Assembly (NCBI GenBank): GCA_040379745.1
Contig: JBEIKL010000003.1
Span: forward strand, 1-43,909
Reading direction: 5' to 3'
DNA from: Bdellovibrionales bacterium
Lineage (GTDB): Bacteria > Bdellovibrionota > UBA1018 > CAIMNF01
DNA: 43,909 nucleotides
The notes under the pieces were generated by a model that was given only the letters and a program-made list of their open reading frames with translations, was not told the origin of the DNA and made no database searches. This document shows, one piece after another, positions 19,119 through 37,785 of this stretch. Numbering within the stretch: the stretch's first letter is position 1; every line of letters starts with the position of its first letter. The position numbers were made by a program, and so were the translations under genes.

Positions 19119-19405
19119 CGCTTTTACGCGTTTCTTAGATTAATTTTCTAAGGACTTCTCTACCCCAAAACATGTCTTAGATATTCTTATGGGAAAAGAG
19201 TTTTTAAAGAAAAGTTATCCACCAAATAATTGAAGTTATCCACCAGACTTAAGCCAATGTTTTCAATAGATATTTTTGCTTATATTTTCCATTTTTGGGT
19301 GTTGTTTTATTTTTTATCCACAAACAAACGAATTTCTCGATATTTTATGGGTTTTTTTTAACAGATCCAGAAAACCGTCTGAATTTTGTCGCAATTTTTT
19401 GGGAA
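19119..19405. promoter_or_regulatory. AT-rich intergenic region with DnaA-box cluster
   Basis: TTATCCACC at 19215 and 19236, TTATCCACA at 19314; lies between convergent genes. Confidence 0.6.
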
Positions 19406-32807: not shown

Positions 32808-32876
32808 GGTGTAATCCCCCGATCACAAAAACAAGATGAGTAAATAATTTGACACTGCAGGGGCTTGATTACAAAT

Positions 32877-32907
32877 AAAAAAAGGGCCTGGATTTGGATC
32901 CAGGCCC
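32877..32907 (-). terminator. Intrinsic terminator upstream of smc
   Basis: Minus strand GGGCCTGGAT-CCAA-ATCCAGGCCC-TTTTTTT. Confidence 0.85.
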
Positions 32908-32960
32908 ACGATGTCTTTACGACTTCTGTTAGGGGGTTGGGGGTTCAGATCGTCGCCGAT
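32877..32960 (-). ncRNA. Candidate C-rich-loop small RNA or 3'-UTR element (5' end unknown)
   Basis: Stem ACGA-UCUG/CAGA-(AG)-UCGU with loop AACCCCCAACCCCCUAA, followed by terminator. Confidence 0.5.
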
Positions 32961-33111
32961 ATGTATATATTTTTTGGCTCCCTGCCCATTAGCAATCCCG
33001 CTGATATATTTACTATTTATTTTTTTCGAGCCCCGACTGGACAACCTGGCCAGGTTCGCCATCGTGGTTCATAGGTTTCACCGATATCCCGTGAGTTCTC
33101 CTATGCTTACC

Positions 33112-33195
33112 CTAGCGTGGGGGCCCCGCGTTGTGGACTTGGTGCTTTTCGTCTTTTGCGTTCTGAGACAGCTCACGTACTGCTTGTTCTCTCAT
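33112..33195 (-). CDS. Candidate 27-aa small protein MREQAVRELSQNAKDEKHQVHNAGPPR
   Basis: AGGAGG RBS just before ATG; TTGACC-N17-TAACCT promoter-like sequence upstream. Confidence 0.4.
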   Translation of the reverse strand: MREQAVRELSQNAKDEKHQVHNAGPPR

Positions 33196-33296
33196 ACGTC
33201 CTCCTGAATTTAGGTTACTATACCTGATTGTTAAGGTCAACTAATAATTTAAAGAAATCTGTTTATTTTTTTAGCCAATAATTACAGTATTTTGTC

Positions 33297-34016: not shown

Positions 34017-35569
34017 ACCGTTCCAAAGTTTTCACGTATCTCGCCTTGATCCTGGTCTTCTCTCTTTGGATCTACTCCCTTTTCCAGGTTCCCACTTTTG
34101 ATCTCGATGAATCGCTCTATCGCCGTGTTGCCGAGGAAATGAAATGGAATGGCGATTACTGGCATGCCGTCTGGGACGAACGCTCCCTTCACCACAAACC
34201 ACCGTTTTTTTACTGGTTGATCGTGATTTTCAGCCGCATTTTCGACGGTGCCGAAGCGGGAGTTTCCATTCTTTCCGCTCGATTTCCGAGTTTTCTTGCC
34301 ACACTGGGAATCCTTTGGTCCCTTTCGCGATTCGCCCCACTCAAAGAGACGATACTGGCATGGGCTTGCCTGTTGTTTCCATTGCTGACTTCGACAGCGG
34401 TCCTGTTCGATCCGATCCAGACTCTTTTGCTGATGCCGACCCTTCTGATTCCCCATCGCGCATTTTCAGAGGGAAGAATGATCTTGAAAAAAGAATACCA
34501 CTGGATGGCGATCAGCCTGTTCGGCGCCACCCTGTTCAAAGGGTTGAACGGACTCATCTTGCCCACTCTGGCGATCGCGCTGCACACACTCGCGTTCCAA
34601 TGGAAAAATGTTTTTCGGGCAGGCTTGCTCTATCTGAACCATGTATTCTTGCCGGCCCTGACACTGTGTTCGTTGGGCTTTTGGTTCCTCGATTGGAACA
34701 TCGGTCGACCATTCACGCAGGAATTTTTTCTGGTGCATCACTTCGGCCGCGGAACGCAGGCCATGGAATCGCACGGTGGCCCCTGGTTCTATCACCTGAT
34801 CACGACCCTCATCGGAGGTGGCTTGCTGATTCCACTTGTTGCGCACCACTGGCTTCGCACCCGTCCGAGTCTTCGCCGTCTCGGATACCCGCTGACTTTC
34901 GCAGTGGCCATCATTGTTTTCTTCAGTCTTTCGGCAACCAAACTGCCGCACTATACTTGGCCGATCTGGCCTGCCCTGGTTTTATTTTATTTGGAAATCC
35001 GCAAACTGCCGACCGTTACGATGGGTGTGAAATGGGTGGAAGCCTGGAAATTCCTGTTGATTCCGACGCTTGCTCTCGGCATTGCACTTTTCTGGCTGGT
35101 GCTCAACCCCGAAGCGATTCCGCAAACGGAACTCACTGACATCGAAGTGCTTCTTCTCAGTGCGGCCGCAACCTTCTGCTCGGTGGTGCCCTTTGTGTTT
35201 CAACGGTTTTTGAAACAGCCCGAGTATCTTGCCTTTTTCAATGCGATGATCACCCTGCTCATCGCGGTTCCCGCATCTTCAATCGCCGAGCGTATTTGGG
35301 TTGAACCCTACCGTGAAGCCGTCCGTGAATTGAAAAAACAAAATCCGCAACCGGGGGTCTGCCTCTGGGATACCGGGCCGATGACCGCTACGCTCAGTCT
35401 GGTCATGGGGCAGGAGTTGGGTCGAGGCTACACTCACAATCGGTGCGAACCCACCGGGATGCGCTTCCTGATCAGCCCGAAAGCGCGGGATGAGGAATGC
35501 GCCGAAAGAAAAATGAGCGTTCTCCACCGGGGGAAAACGCTCACTCTTTGCGGTTATATTGTGAATTGA
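34013..35569 (+). CDS. ArnT-like GT-C membrane glycosyltransferase
   Basis: DE.LY, KPP..YW, KG, H.GPW.Y, TKLPHY; overlaps GT2 gene end. Confidence 0.85.
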   Translation: MNRSKVFTYLALILVFSLWIYSLFQVPTFDLDESLYRRVAEEMKWNGDYWHAVWDERSLHHKPPFFYWLIVIFSRIFDGAEAGVSILSARFPSFLATLGILWSLSRFAPLKETILAWACLLFPLLTSTAVLFDPIQTLLLMPTLLIPHRAFSEGRMILKKEYHWMAISLFGATLFKGLNGLILPTLAIALHTLAFQWKNVFRAGLLYLNHVFLPALTLCSLGFWFLDWNIGRPFTQEFFLVHHFGRGTQAMESHGGPWFYHLITTLIGGGLLIPLVAHHWLRTRPSLRRLGYPLTFAVAIIVFFSLSATKLPHYTWPIWPALVLFYLEIRKLPTVTMGVKWVEAWKFLLIPTLALGIALFWLVLNPEAIPQTELTDIEVLLLSAAATFCSVVPFVFQRFLKQPEYLAFFNAMITLLIAVPASSIAERIWVEPYREAVRELKKQNPQPGVCLWDTGPMTATLSLVMGQELGRGYTHNRCEPTGMRFLISPKARDEECAERKMSVLHRGKTLTLCGYIVN

Positions 35570-35573
35570 AGGA

Positions 35574-35774
35574 TTAAGCGAAATCGCGATCCATCACGGT
35601 CTTGCGGCCGTCACGTTTTGCGTTCTCGATCGCCTGATCACACATTTCACGGATCTTGTCGGAAAGAACATCGGTTACCGCAGCAGAAGTGTTCATGTCT
35701 GCCTTGGAGCGGATGTAGCCTTTCAATTTGGATGCGACCACCAAAACTTCTTTATCTGTATTTGTATCTGACAT
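35574..35774 (-). CDS. Bacterial histone-fold protein (Bd0055/HBb-like), 66 aa
   Basis: EVLVVASKLKGYI..MNTS..V.DVLS..I...C..A...AK.DGRKTVM.RD matches the Bdellovibrio histone pattern; AAAGGAG RBS before ATG 35774. Confidence 0.9.
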   Translation of the reverse strand: MSDTNTDKEVLVVASKLKGYIRSKADMNTSAAVTDVLSDKIREMCDQAIENAKRDGRKTVMDRDFA

Positions 35775-35889
35775 AACTGGCTCCTTTGATTGGGTTGTTG
35801 AAAACCAAAATTGTTCTGGACCTGCATTTAGCGGTTCAAGATGAGAGCCTAGCTTCAAGGATTGGGGCGACGGTTTCAACCAAAAAAAC

Positions 35890-35974
35890 AAAAAAAATGG
35901 GCCCGAATCAAGGGGGGTTGATCCGAGCCCGAAAAACATGCCTTTGGGGGTTAGGGGGGGTCGGCACGCTCACC
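35890..35974 (-). ncRNA. Candidate sigma54-dependent small RNA, about 85 nt, two C-rich loops
   Basis: Hairpin GCGUGCC/GGCAUGU with loop GACCCCCCCUAACCCCCAAA; terminator GGGCUCGGAUCAA-CCCCCC-UUGAUUCGGGCCC-AU8; -24/-12 promoter directly upstream. Confidence 0.7.
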
Positions 35975-35982
35975 ATTTATGA

Positions 35983-35999
35983 TGCAATGCGCATGCCAA
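35983..35999 (-). promoter_or_regulatory. Sigma54 (-24/-12) promoter
   Basis: TTGGCATGCGCATTGCA, near-consensus TGGCAC-N5-TTGC. Confidence 0.8.
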
Positions 36000-36058
36000 C
36001 AACCTATTTACTTGTAATTACTTAATTTGTACGTGATTCGGACGCTATGCGTCATATA

Positions 36059-36081
36059 TTTTATACATATTATGTATAAAA
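36059..36081. promoter_or_regulatory. Perfect inverted repeat, candidate enhancer-binding-protein site
   Basis: TTTTATACATA-T-TATGTATAAAA about 85-110 bp upstream of predicted sigma54 start. Confidence 0.5.
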
Positions 36082-36084
36082 GTT

Positions 36085-37785
36085 TTACATACCCGATGCA
36101 GCTTGGACATAGGCCAGGTGAAGTGGAGCAACTCGAACCTGATTTCTCCCGCCTCGCTTACTTTCATAGAGAGCTTCGTCTGCCCGATTGAACAAGGATC
36201 GAGCGTCCCGGGAATGAATTCCGCATTCGGAAATCCCGATCGAAAGAGTGACCTTCAAATTCCGACCTTCGTACTCGAATTCATGGCCTTCGACCTTCTG
36301 TCGGAACTCTTCAAGCTTCTGAAAGGCTTCGTTTGATCCCAAACCGGAAAAGATCACACAGAACTCTTCGCCGCCATAGCGATAAATGTGCTCGCCCATT
36401 TCACACCGAATGGACTCAAACAGATGAGCAACCCCTTTCAAGATGGCATCACCGGCACGATGGCCGTAACGATCATTGAACTGTTTGAAGTGATCGATAT
36501 CGAGAAGTGCCAACGTCAGAGGACGGGACTCCACCAACGAAGCCGTAACGAGCTCATGAAAGGTGTCTTCGAAATACCGTGAATTGTACAAACCGGTCAA
36601 ACGGTCCGTGATCGAAGCGGAATAAAGACGCGATTTGTGCAGGCTTGCTGCTGACTGATCCGCGATTCCCTGCAAGAGCTTCACTTCCTCTCGCGAGAAG
36701 CGACCGAAGCGATCCTGAACGGCGGTGCCATCGGATTCCACGTGCACCTTGTTCGAAAAGTTCATCACGCCTTCCAAGACTCCGGCATTCAAAACCGGAA
36801 CAGAACAGATACAAAGGATCTCATCACCATCGACCGGAAGGATTTCTTCCGGATTGTTCTGGACCACAGCCTTTCGTTCCAGTGCCGCCCTTCCTGCGGC
36901 ACCTTCTCCGATTTCAAATTGTTTCACCCGAGCAGGATCCTCATGCACATGCCCCCAGGACATGACCACCTGGAGTTGTCCCGTCGCCCGATTCAGCATC
37001 ATCAGGTTTCCCTTCTGGGCACTCACGGCGCGAACCGCATTTTCGATCATTTTTACACAAAAGGTGTCGAAATCATGGATATCCGAAAGAGTTTGATTGA
37101 ATTCATAAAGAGTACGGATATTTTCCAGTGCAAAGCGGTTCCGTTCCGAACGGATCGCGGAATCGATGATCACGGCGGCCATGGAAGATAACTCCTGTAT
37201 GAAGAAATGTTCCGACTCCTCAATCGAAGTTCCGTCACGTTTTTCCCCCAGTGCGAGAATGCCGATCACCTCGCCCGAGCGAATCAAGGGGCACCACACA
37301 TCGGATTTCAATGCAGAAAGACGATTACGTTCCCAAGCGGTCTTGAATCGGGGTTCCTTTTTCAGGTTTCTCACTGGAATGACCCCACCCTGACTTACAA
37401 TTTGCCAAAGAAGTCCGTGATCACGCTCAAAACGGAACAGGGCGAGTGGTTCTCGCAAACCACGCGCATTGAGGTAGTAATCCTCGAGCCCGTGATGGCG
37501 ACGCAATTGGAAGAAACACCGTTCGCCGGTTTCGACTTCCTCTTTCAACAGAACGGAAGTGTGGGTGAGATCGAATCGTTCACGCACGATCGCCATGAAT
37601 GAGTCCAGCAACAGGGAAAGATCGGAAATCGTTCCCAAGCTCTTGCACGACCGGATCACGTCCTGCAATTCAAGCATGCGACTGTCCTGTGAAATCAGTT
37701 TTGATTTCAACGATTCGATCTGATGATCCTGTGATTCCGGCGATCTCATATTGGTTTCCGTATGAAGTGCAATCTGAGGCATCAT
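36085..37785 (-). CDS. GAF-GAF-GGDEF diguanylate cyclase
   Basis: Two GAF-like domains, TDRLTGLYN, DIDHFK.FND.YGH.AGD, RYGGEEF, TLSIG, AD.ALY..K..GRN. Confidence 0.92.
   Translation of the reverse strand: MMPQIALHTETNMRSPESQDHQIESLKSKLISQDSRMLELQDVIRSCKSLGTISDLSLLLDSFMAIVRERFDLTHTSVLLKEEVETGERCFFQLRRHHGLEDYYLNARGLREPLALFRFERDHGLLWQIVSQGGVIPVRNLKKEPRFKTAWERNRLSALKSDVWCPLIRSGEVIGILALGEKRDGTSIEESEHFFIQELSSMAAVIIDSAIRSERNRFALENIRTLYEFNQTLSDIHDFDTFCVKMIENAVRAVSAQKGNLMMLNRATGQLQVVMSWGHVHEDPARVKQFEIGEGAAGRAALERKAVVQNNPEEILPVDGDEILCICSVPVLNAGVLEGVMNFSNKVHVESDGTAVQDRFGRFSREEVKLLQGIADQSAASLHKSRLYSASITDRLTGLYNSRYFEDTFHELVTASLVESRPLTLALLDIDHFKQFNDRYGHRAGDAILKGVAHLFESIRCEMGEHIYRYGGEEFCVIFSGLGSNEAFQKLEEFRQKVEGHEFEYEGRNLKVTLSIGISECGIHSRDARSLFNRADEALYESKRGGRNQVRVAPLHLAYVQAASGM

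What the first reader, a model, noticed from the sequence alone, without database searches (positions are those of the whole stretch)
35890..35999. Sigma54-driven ~85-nt small RNA with two exposed C-tract loops, directly upstream of the bacterial histone gene
Seen: near-consensus -24/-12 promoter (TTGGCATGCGCATTGCA), then a 7-bp stem with loop GACCCCCCCUAACCCCCAAA, then a 13-bp terminator stem whose loop is CCCCCC, then U8. The G-U pairs in both stems work only on the minus strand, which supports an RNA rather than a DNA palindrome. No credible ORF inside. Known: C-rich loop sRNAs pair with G-rich ribosome-binding regions (RsaE/RoxS UCCC motifs, alphaproteobacterial cuckoo RNAs). Inference: a stand-alone trans-acting sRNA family I do not recognise, or an attenuator gating sigma54 read-through into the histone gene.
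Basis: partly seen in the sequence, partly recalled or inferred. Interest (0 to 1): 0.85.

Follow-up and report, generated by a model that had tools for sequence, protein, structure and literature searches.

The report
Sigma-54 small RNA with C-rich loops
This is a conserved small non-coding RNA gene of uncultured predatory-type bacteria (Bdellovibrionales), apparently switched on by the sigma-54 system, that displays two cytosine-rich loops likely used to pair with guanine-rich messenger RNAs; it is a new RNA family of a familiar kind.

Summary
On the minus strand at 35890-35998 lie a near-consensus sigma-54 promoter (TGGCAT-N5-TTGCA), a 9-bp hairpin with a 20-nt loop carrying C7 and C5 tracts, and a 13-bp terminator with a CCCCCC loop and U8. 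The element is a real, conserved gene. A covariance model finds it in all 17 genomes of the genus and in at least five more genera of the order. All 27 aligned copies fold into the same two hairpins. The stems covary (15 of 22 pairs compensatory) and the loops vary less than the stems. The promoter is kept in 26 of 27 copies, and a TGT-N11-ACA dyad sits 91-95 nt upstream in 16 of 16 genus copies. In a second family the RNA lies between opposite-strand genes, so it is not a histone leader. No Rfam family reaches threshold; the best is actinobacterial 6C at 25.3 of 47 bits. No Hfq was found in the genus. Expression, targets and the activator remain unshown. Verdict: a new sRNA family, sigma-54-driven and 6C-like in design, of moderate interest.

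The parts
36073..36089 (.). Upstream dyad TGTAAAACTTTTATACA (TGT-N11-ACA), the likely binding site of a sigma-54 enhancer-binding protein, 91 nt upstream of the T of TGGCA
   Evidence: Found at 91-95 nt in 16 of 16 genus copies: 11 exact and 5 with one mismatch. A related TGTCTAAAGTTTAGACA lies at 110-166 nt in the second family. In the own genome 6 such dyads fall 80-99 nt upstream of 42 promoter-like sites, against 0.11 expected.
35983..35998 (-). Sigma-54-type promoter TGGCAT-N5-TTGCA (-24 GG, -12 GC)
   Evidence: Sequence. The motif is kept in 26 of 27 family members. rpoN is present in the genome, along with about 10 strong Sigma54_activat genes. The genome holds 25 such sites against 4.6 expected.
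35890..35973 (-). Predicted sRNA transcript of about 83 nt; the 5' end is inferred from promoter geometry and the 3' end lies in the U-tract
   Evidence: Fold. Model R1 scores 92.3 bits at 35890-35978. The 5' and 3' ends are inferred, not observed.
35934..35971 (-). Hairpin 1: 9-bp stem with the 20-nt loop GACCCCCCCUAACCCCCAAA at 35943-35962, carrying two C tracts
   Evidence: Loop 1 has two C4+ tracts in 27 of 27 copies. Stem pair 11-49 occurs as AU 12, CG 6 and UA 4.
35899..35930 (-). Hairpin 2, the intrinsic terminator: 13-bp stem with loop CCCCCC at 35912-35917
   Evidence: All 13 of its pairs show compensatory changes. The loop has a C5+ tract in 26 of 27 copies.
35890..35897 (-). U8 tract of the terminator
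35851..35879 (-). Conserved box TTGAAAC...CCCCAATCC..GAAGCT between the terminator and the histone gene. It is context, possibly the histone gene's own promoter, and is not part of the sRNA
   Evidence: Seen by eye in the genus sequences. The sigma-70 scan gave no call here.
35574..35774 (-). Downstream histone-fold gene (66 aa); context only
   Evidence: In 9 of 16 genus loci the orthologue carries an N-terminal Cys-rich domain, giving 146 aa or more.
36085..37785 (-). Upstream GAF-GGDEF diguanylate cyclase gene; context only
   Evidence: It lies upstream in 15 of 16 genus loci and in the one locus of the sister genus.
32875..32967 (-). Second, different sRNA-like element ('type B') with the same CCCCC-AA-CCCCC loop motif, upstream of smc
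   Evidence: R1 scores 27.1 bits. Sequence.

Best explanation
The element is an independent gene for an RNA of about 83 nt. An enhancer-binding protein bound to the TGT-N11-ACA dyad about 90 nt upstream activates sigma-54 RNA polymerase at the -24/-12 promoter. Transcription starts near 35972 and stops at the intrinsic terminator. The RNA folds into two stable hairpins whose loops display single-stranded C tracts: C7 and C5 in loop 1, C6 in loop 2. These tracts most likely act as seeds that pair with G tracts in other RNAs, for example GGGGG-type ribosome-binding sites. The pairing would be G-C-rich and need no Hfq, as shown for actinobacterial 6C RNA. Shown here: the anatomy, its conservation with covarying stems and constrained loops, the conserved promoter and dyad, and its stand-alone position in a second family. 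Inferred: transcription itself, the 5' and 3' ends, sigma-54 and activator dependence, and the trans-pairing mechanism and its targets.
For: Anatomy and strand asymmetry.

Conservation:
- BLAST finds it in 16 of 16 other genus genomes and in 0 of 44 outside.
- Model R1 finds strong matches in the genus, a sister genus and three genera of a second family, out of 116 genomes of the order.
- Model R2 adds a genus with two promoter-bearing copies.

Structure:
- On 27 sequences 90.0% of cells pair, against 74.9% in shuffles (0 of 500 reach it) and at most 53.8% when partners are slid.
- 15 of 22 pairs have compensatory changes.
- 27 of 27 fold alone into two hairpins.
- Mean column entropy is 0.87 bits in stems, 0.43 in loop 1 and 0.33 in loop 2.

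Promoter and activator site:
- The -24/-12 motif is present in 26 of 27 copies.
- The dyad sits at a fixed 91-95 nt in 16 of 16 genus copies and is enriched at that distance among the genome's sigma-54 sites.
- rpoN and the activator genes are present.

Independence: in the second family the nearest downstream long ORF is on the opposite strand in 10 of 10 loci. It is a convergent LysR gene in 9 of 10.

Analogy:
- The best Rfam resemblance is 6C, whose C-rich loops bind mRNAs without chaperones (PMC6486639, abstract read).
- Hfq (PF17209) was found in 0 of 17 genus genomes, 13 of them at least 90% complete.
- GGGGG lies in the Shine-Dalgarno zone of about 78 of 2133 ORF starts.
Against: - No transcript was seen. 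Contigs from four metatranscriptome runs cover only the histone gene, which says nothing either way about an 83-nt RNA.
- No conserved target was found. The best complement in the own genome is 15 bp inside a 190-aa ORF on contig C57, and it is lost through synonymous changes in the orthologues. The own-loop duplex energy there is -36.2 kcal/mol, against -12.5 to -29.3 in the 15 other genomes that could be scored.
- Near-perfect complements of the loop (12 of 13 or better) occur in the genus no more often than a reversed control, apart from the sRNA genes themselves.
- The cognate activator is not identified.
- The covariation counts were made on a model-fitted alignment of related sequences. 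Helix 1 has only 2 of 9 pairs with compensatory change.
- One family member (L042, the sister genus) shows no -24/-12 motif.
Confidence: 0.6

Rival explanations
1. The RNA is a protein-binding or decoy RNA. The exposed C tracts would titrate a C-binding protein, such as a KH-domain or cold-shock-type RNA-binding protein or Rho, instead of pairing with mRNAs.
For: The loops are more conserved than the stems. No conserved complementary target was found. A second, unrelated sRNA-like family carries the same CCCCC-AA-CCCCC loop, which fits a shared ligand as well as a shared seed.
Against: No candidate protein was examined here. The only experimentally studied analogue with this design, 6C, acts by base pairing (PMC6486639, abstract). 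Short G-C seeds would escape my 12-of-13 search.
Confidence: 0.17
2. The element is a cis-acting leader or attenuator. The sigma-54 transcript normally ends at the terminator, and regulated read-through drives the downstream histone gene.
For: In the window's family the element lies upstream of and on the same strand as a histone or zinc-finger-histone gene in 17 of 17 loci. These are 16 genus loci, the window's own included, plus the sister genus.
Against: The terminator has a 13-bp stem with 7 G-C pairs plus U8, and the MFE makes up 0.56 of the ensemble with no competing fold. A conserved box lies between the terminator and the histone gene. In the second family the downstream gene is convergent in 10 of 10 loci, and no histone or GGDEF match lies in those loci.
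Confidence: 0.08
3. It is a true homologue of actinobacterial 6C RNA acquired by horizontal transfer, and therefore a divergent member of RF01066.
For: The full-length 6C model (positions 1-75) aligns over both hairpins at 25.3 bits in the window and 23.4 bits in L008. In both cases it is the top Rfam match.
Against: The scores are about half the gathering score of 47, with E 0.4-0.6 even in searches of 0.3-1 kb. The second-family copy gives no 6C match. The similarity lies mainly in C tracts and generic hairpins. 6C is described as conserved among high-GC Gram-positives (PMC6486639, abstract).
Confidence: 0.05
4. It is not an RNA gene. The hairpins would be the 3' terminator region of the upstream GGDEF gene, or DNA palindromes, and the promoter match would be fortuitous.
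For: The element follows the GGDEF gene on the same strand in 15 of 16 genus loci. No transcript has been observed.
Against: The promoter and dyad are conserved at fixed spacing. The G-U pairs are strand-specific. In the second family the flanking LolA-like gene, where found (6 of 10 loci), and the LysR gene (9 of 10) lie on the opposite strand. The loops are under stronger constraint than the stems.
Confidence: 0.04

Closest known systems
6C RNA (Rfam RF01066; B11 in mycobacteria)
   Same: Both are small RNAs of two hairpins, each with a C-rich loop. The window has C7 plus C5 in loop 1 and C6 in loop 2. 6C is the top Rfam match for the window and for L008. 6C pairs with mRNAs through its C-rich loops without chaperones (PMC6486639, abstract). 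The genus here shows no Hfq.
   Different: The scores of 25.3 and 23.4 bits are far below the gathering score of 47, and the second-family copy gives no match. The phylum differs: Bdellovibrionota-type MAGs against high-GC Gram-positives. The element here has a sigma-54 promoter with an upstream dyad, loop 1 has a bipartite C tract split by UAA/AA/AAA, and hairpin 2 doubles as the terminator.
Qrr sRNAs of Vibrio, and other sigma-54-dependent sRNAs (GlmY/GlmZ, CrcZ, Pxr); names and properties recalled, not taken from a call
   Same: All are stand-alone small RNA genes transcribed from -24/-12 promoters under an enhancer-binding protein that binds upstream. They convert an activator's signal into post-transcriptional control.
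   Different: There is no sequence or structure match to any of these Rfam families. The seed is made of C tracts in hairpin loops. No Hfq is detectable in the genus, whereas Qrr and GlmZ act with Hfq (recalled).
   Same: They carry exposed C-rich motifs in loops and are thought to pair with G-rich ribosome-binding regions.
   Different: Their motifs are UCCC or CCUCCUCCC rather than pure C5-C7 runs. The promoters and taxa differ, and there is no Rfam match.

Membership tests
6C RNA (RF01066) | Reaches the Rfam gathering score (47 bits) | tested here: not met
   25.3 bits, E 0.63, in the window. 23.4 bits in L008. No 6C match in L038, and none at E<=1 in 20 relatives' loci.
6C RNA (RF01066) | Two hairpins, each with a loop holding a run of about six C | tested here: met
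   The window has C7 and C5 in loop 1 and C6 in loop 2. 27 of 27 copies have two C4+ tracts in loop 1, and 26 of 27 have C5+ in loop 2.
6C RNA (RF01066) | [quoted passage not shown] | tested here: not met
   All 23 model-confirmed records of the pattern scan are labelled Bdellovibrionales, Oligoflexia, Bdellovibrionia, Bacteriovoracaceae or Proteobacteria, plus one 'Nitrosovibrio' MAG. The Frankia and Streptomyces pattern hits do not match the model.
Sigma-54-dependent promoter | GG at -24 and GC at -12 with fixed spacing (TGGCAC-N5-TTGCW) | tested here: met
   The window has TGGCATGCGCATTGCA. 26 of 27 family members keep the motif.
Sigma-54-dependent promoter | rpoN and enhancer-binding proteins encoded in the genome | tested here: met
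   Sigma54_DBD scores 220 bits in a 509-aa frame. Ten Sigma54_activat matches score 144 bits or more.
Sigma-54-dependent promoter | Upstream activator site about 80-150 bp from the promoter | tested here: met
   The TGT-N11-ACA dyad lies at 91-95 nt in 16 of 16 genus copies and is enriched at that distance genome-wide. The binding protein was not identified.
Sigma-54-dependent promoter | Transcription requires RpoN and an activator | not testable with these tools
   This needs genetics or in vitro transcription.
Trans-acting base-pairing sRNA | Own promoter and own terminator, and not part of a neighbouring mRNA | tested here: met
   Promoter and terminator. In the second family the downstream long ORF is on the opposite strand in 10 of 10 loci; LysR matches lie on the opposite strand in 9 of 10 and LolA-like matches in 6 of 10.
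Trans-acting base-pairing sRNA | A discrete transcript is observed | tested here: inconclusive
   RNA-library contigs cover only 35550-35814, the histone gene. Contigs cannot show small RNAs or ends.
Trans-acting base-pairing sRNA | Conserved complementarity to target mRNAs | tested here: inconclusive
   The best own-genome site is not conserved. Long complements are not above the control. Short G5 sites are common in ribosome-binding regions but were not tested for co-variation.
Transcription attenuator or leader of the downstream gene | Same-strand downstream gene in all members, and an alternative anti-terminator fold | tested here: not met
   0 of 10 second-family loci have a same-strand downstream gene. 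The MFE structure makes up 0.56 of the ensemble, and MFE and centroid are identical.

The most novel reading that the evidence does not exclude
In these Hfq-less Bdellovibrionales, at least two unrelated sRNA families share one CCCCC-AA-CCCCC seed. One is this sigma-54-driven RNA next to the histone gene. The other is the 'type B' RNA next to smc. Together they could form a C-tract regulon that shuts off mRNAs with GGGGG-type ribosome-binding sites. The G5 site of smc is kept in 3 of 3 loci where it could be seen, and flagellin and many secreted proteins also carry one. That would tie an enhancer-binding-protein signal to nucleoid and cell-cycle control in a predatory lineage, as a convergent counterpart of actinobacterial 6C.
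Probability: 0.1. Interest if true: 0.75.

Novelty: new member of a known kind. Interest (0 to 1): 0.5.

Why it matters
Very little is known about RNA regulators in Bdellovibrionota. The one survey I read lists eight attack-phase sRNAs of B. bacteriovorus and reports no significant homology for them in other genomes (PMC3627812, passages).

This family differs in several ways:
- It is conserved across at least two families of the order.
- Its input is clearly readable: a sigma-54 promoter plus a conserved activator site that it shares with a few genes for secreted or unknown proteins.
- Its output surface is clearly readable too: invariant C tracts.

It also lies in a lineage where no Hfq was found. 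That makes it a natural test of whether G-C-rich loop pairing is a general chaperone-free solution, reached independently of Actinobacteria. The model built here could seed an Rfam family and improve annotation of these MAGs. The link to the bacterial histone is only one of position, but it is easy to test.

Tried and rejected
1. Expression. The look-up of sequencing runs listed four metatranscriptome runs. Laid on 35300-36500, their contigs cover only 35550-35814, the histone gene and part of its leader. None covers or bridges the sRNA. This is no evidence for or against an 83-nt RNA.

2. Target in the own genome. The best duplex was 15 bp at -36.2 kcal/mol inside a 190-aa wHTH/nucleotidyltransferase-like ORF on C57. 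I rejected it because the protein is 86-96% identical in 16 orthologues while the G tract is lost through synonymous changes.

3. Long complements of the loop in the genus (pattern with up to 1 mismatch). All 13 exact matches lie in copies of this sRNA family, and 2 of the 15 one-mismatch matches lie in type-B copies. Counts per genome (0-3) match the reversed control (0-6).

4. The activator. I guessed that the 432-aa enhancer-binding protein on C1, which has a sigma-54 promoter and a TGT-N11-ACA at 88 nt, is the autoregulated cognate activator. I rejected this: the promoter is kept in 14 of 15 orthologues but the dyad in only 2 of 15. Its N-terminal domain was found in 14 of 16 other genus genomes, but not in the sister genus (g2), nor named in the per-genus tallies shown for the second-family genera that carry the sRNA.

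5. Wider membership. 14 of the 37 pattern hits lie in other taxa (Frankia, Streptomyces, several Betaproteobacteria and others). They do not match the model or fold alike, so they are chance. Weak model hits L048, L049 and L122-L127 are terminators or unrelated hairpins.

6. Coding potential. The 121-aa frame from ATG 35939 is not conserved.

7. Sigma-70 promoter scan of 35300-36300: 0 sites. The conserved TTGAAAC box could not be assigned to a promoter class.

Supplementary files of papers were not opened. The supplement of PMC3627812 may hold sRNA structures that I did not see.

Full report
**What is there.** Read on the minus strand, the region holds TGGCATGCGCATTGCA at 35998-35983, a one-letter departure from the sigma-54 consensus TGGCAC-N5-TTGCW. 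From promoter geometry, transcription should start at 35971-35974. The RNA then forms two hairpins.
- Hairpin 1 has a 9-bp stem (35971-35963 with 35942-35934) closing the 20-nt loop GACCCCCCCUAACCCCCAAA.
- Hairpin 2 has a 13-bp stem (35930-35918 with 35911-35899) with loop CCCCCC, followed by A and U8 (35897-35890).

RNAfold gives -34.1 kcal/mol, with MFE and centroid identical, MFE frequency 0.56 and z -4.16; 0 of 200 shuffles fold as well. The opposite strand gives -24.7 kcal/mol and z +0.75. The difference comes from five G-U pairs. The terminator scan calls the second hairpin and finds no sigma-70-like promoter in 35300-36300.

**Is it known?** At Rfam's gathering thresholds the whole window yields only five tRNAs. 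A permissive scan of 35400-36400 gives five sub-threshold matches. The best is 6C RNA (RF01066): full model length, 25.3 bits against a threshold of 47, E 0.63. A genus relative (L008) gives 6C at 23.4 bits. A copy from the second family (L038) gives no 6C match. Twenty relatives' loci scanned together give nothing relevant at E<=1. Literature searches gave these results:
- Bdellovibrio with small RNA/sigma54 and with sRNA/transcription start sites brought up one relevant paper, PMC3627812, which lists eight attack-phase sRNAs of B. bacteriovorus (passages read).
- Bdellovibrio with sRNAs and C-rich returned no paper.
- Bdellovibrio with RpoN and enhancer-binding protein returned nothing on such an RNA in the 12 titles and abstract openings listed.

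I therefore found no description in print within that library.

**Conservation.** The own assembly (2.5 Mb, 347 contigs, 78% complete) has one copy by BLAST. BLAST finds the element in 16 of 16 other genomes of the genus and in 0 of 44 genomes outside it.

I built covariance model R1 from 16 genus sequences; one further copy was left out because a contig end truncates it. R1 searched all 116 genomes of the order, and 36 have a match at E<=0.01. On inspection, the clear members have two C-loop hairpins and score 38 bits or more. They are:
- the 17 genus genomes;
- 1 genome of a sister genus;
- 8 genomes of one genus of a second family;
- 1 genome in each of two further genera of that family.

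A rebuilt model R2 was run on 151 genomes sampled across the phylum. It adds a genus with two promoter-bearing copies. Outside the order it finds one convincing relative (54.5 bits) with no visible -24/-12 motif, and one doubtful one.

An exact promoter-plus-loop pattern was scanned over 185,579 species genomes and hit 37 records. Of these, 23 match R1 at 41.9 bits or more. All 23 are MAGs labelled Bdellovibrionales, Oligoflexia, Bdellovibrionia, Bacteriovoracaceae or Proteobacteria, apart from one labelled Nitrosovibrio whose score equals that of a genus member. The other 14, from unrelated taxa, neither match the model nor fold alike. No record titled Bdellovibrio bacteriovorus was among the 37. 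That shows only that the type species lacks this strict pattern.

**Structure and constraint.** On the 27-sequence model alignment A4, 90.0% of cells form standard pairs. Shuffles give 74.9% (0 of 500 reach the observed value), and slid partners give at most 53.8%. Fifteen of 22 pairs show compensatory changes: all 13 of the terminator helix and 2 of 9 in helix 1.

Two caveats apply. The alignment was fitted to the model, and the sequences are related. Independently of the alignment, each of the 27 sequences folds alone into exactly two hairpins. Loop 1 holds two C4+ tracts in 27 of 27 and loop 2 a C5+ tract in 26 of 27. Mean column entropy is 0.87 bits in stems, 0.43 in loop 1 and 0.33 in loop 2. 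Variable stems with fixed loops are what one expects when the loops are the working surface.

**Promoter and activator site.** The -24/-12 motif precedes 26 of 27 copies; the exception is the sister-genus copy. The genome encodes RpoN and ten strong Sigma54_activat proteins. It holds 25 TGGCAY-N5-TTGCW sites against 4.6 expected, most of them 20-60 nt upstream of a start codon.

A dyad TGT-N11-ACA lies 91-95 nt upstream of the T of TGGCA in 16 of 16 genus copies, 11 exact and 5 with one mismatch at the same place. In the window it is TGTAAAACTTTTATACA at 36073-36089. In the second family a related TGTCTAAAGTTTAGACA lies 110-166 nt upstream. It is exact in 6 of 10 loci and has one mismatch in two more. 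The other two loci are cut short by contig ends.

Among 42 looser promoter-like sites in the own genome, six such dyads fall 80-99 nt upstream, against 0.11 expected from the genome-wide frequency. They precede this sRNA, an enhancer-binding protein gene, and four genes for secreted, membrane or unknown proteins with no Pfam match. This looks like a small regulon of one activator, which I could not identify.

**Context.** In the window's family the order is GAF-GGDEF cyclase, sRNA, histone-fold gene, then a convergent membrane protein. The histone gene is present in 16 of 16 genus loci and in the sister genus. The cyclase is absent in one genus locus (L004).

The histone-fold gene matches the solved chains 8cmp_A and 8fvx_A at E about 1e-14. 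In 9 of 16 genus loci it carries an N-terminal Cys-rich domain. That corresponds to the 'ZZ histones' described in PMC11390915 (passages read). The window has only the 66-aa histone fold.

In the second family no histone or GGDEF match lies in the loci. There the sRNA sits between a LolA-like gene on the opposite strand, matched in 6 of the 10 loci, and a convergent LysR gene, found in 9 of 10 loci. The nearest downstream long ORF is on the opposite strand in 10 of 10. So the RNA is a transcription unit of its own. The histone neighbourhood is family-specific synteny.

**Mechanism.** The design has a stable scaffold with G-C-rich single-stranded loops. The only studied look-alike is 6C, whose C-rich loops bind mRNAs without chaperones (PMC6486639, abstract). 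Together these make base pairing with G tracts the best-supported mechanism. Hfq (PF17209) was found in 0 of 17 genus genomes, 13 of them at least 90% complete, while the control genomes gave matches.

G5 runs lie in the Shine-Dalgarno zone of about 78 of 2133 crude ORF starts. My script listed 89 rows; 11 lie at contig ends and are slicing artefacts. The 78 include smc, a flagellin-like gene and many genes with signal peptides. The smc G5 is kept in the 3 of 3 loci where its start could be seen.

I could not show a conserved target. The mechanism therefore remains an inference, and a protein-decoy role is the main rival.

**Verdict.** This is a genuine, conserved and so far undescribed sRNA family of Bdellovibrionales. 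It is sigma-54-controlled and 6C-like in design, but it is not a member of RF01066. Function and expression are untested.

Noticed in passing
window 32875-32967 (-); G000 contig C14 about 19270-19362 (-), held as L101:771-863: A second sRNA-like family ('type B'). It has a hairpin whose loop carries the same CCCCC-A(A)-CCCCC motif and a terminator without a C-rich loop. An invariant AGGGAGC box lies about 20 nt upstream, and there is no -24/-12 motif. The window copy lies just upstream of smc, and copies are present at the same place in relatives.
   Followed up: partly
window 35574-35774 (-) compared with L003:1665-2105 and 8 other genus loci: In 9 of 16 genus loci the gene downstream of the sRNA is a fusion of 146 aa or more: a Cys-rich (ZZ-type-like) domain joined to the histone fold. 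The window and six other species keep only the 66-aa fold, so this 'histone' looks like a ZZ-histone orthologue that lost its zinc-finger part. The fused ORFs appear to start at a GTG with no visible Shine-Dalgarno sequence.
   Followed up: partly
window 35851-35879 (-): A conserved box TTGAAAC-N..-CCCC(A/G)ATCC-..-GAAGCT(A) lies between the sRNA terminator and the histone gene in the genus. It does not fit the sigma-70 scan and is possibly the histone promoter.
   Followed up: no
G000 contigs C3:7393, C19:18386, C26:17496, C28:12633 (promoters): Four further sigma-54 promoters carry a TGT-N11-ACA dyad 88-96 nt upstream. They precede genes for a 199-aa lipoprotein-like protein, a 102-aa protein, a 420-aa secreted protein and an 85-aa membrane protein, none with a Pfam match. 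This is a candidate regulon shared with the sRNA.
   Followed up: partly
whole genus (17 genomes): No Hfq (PF17209) match was found in any of the 17 genomes, 13 of them at least 90% complete.
   Followed up: yes
G000 genome-wide; e.g. window 32820-32826 upstream of smc (start 32807): About 78 of 2133 crude ORF starts have GGGGG in the Shine-Dalgarno zone. They include smc, a flagellin-like gene, a trigger-factor-like gene and many signal-peptide proteins.
   Followed up: partly
window 33040-33240 (-): A TTGACC-17-TATAGT promoter-like site is followed by a 27-codon ORF (MREQAVRELSQNAKDEKHQVHNAGPPR) and a GC-rich stretch ending in an A-run. It lies just upstream of the type-B element and has no Rfam match at gathering score.
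   Followed up: no
G000 contigs C14:25125-25170, C55:1855-2058, C71:8782-8819, C24:5245-5282: These are intergenic stretches with several G5+ tracts, up to G15. They are the strongest non-coding complements to the C-rich loops. Their strand, expression and conservation are unknown.
   Followed up: no
L043, L044, L045, L038 (second family): Some copies carry a third hairpin with a C-rich loop directly after hairpin 2. In these copies hairpin 2 lacks a good U-tract and the third hairpin carries it.
   Followed up: no
L084 (record CALPVV020000039.1): A MAG labelled Nitrosovibrio carries a copy whose model score equals that of genus member G008. The record's label probably does not fit this contig.
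   Followed up: no
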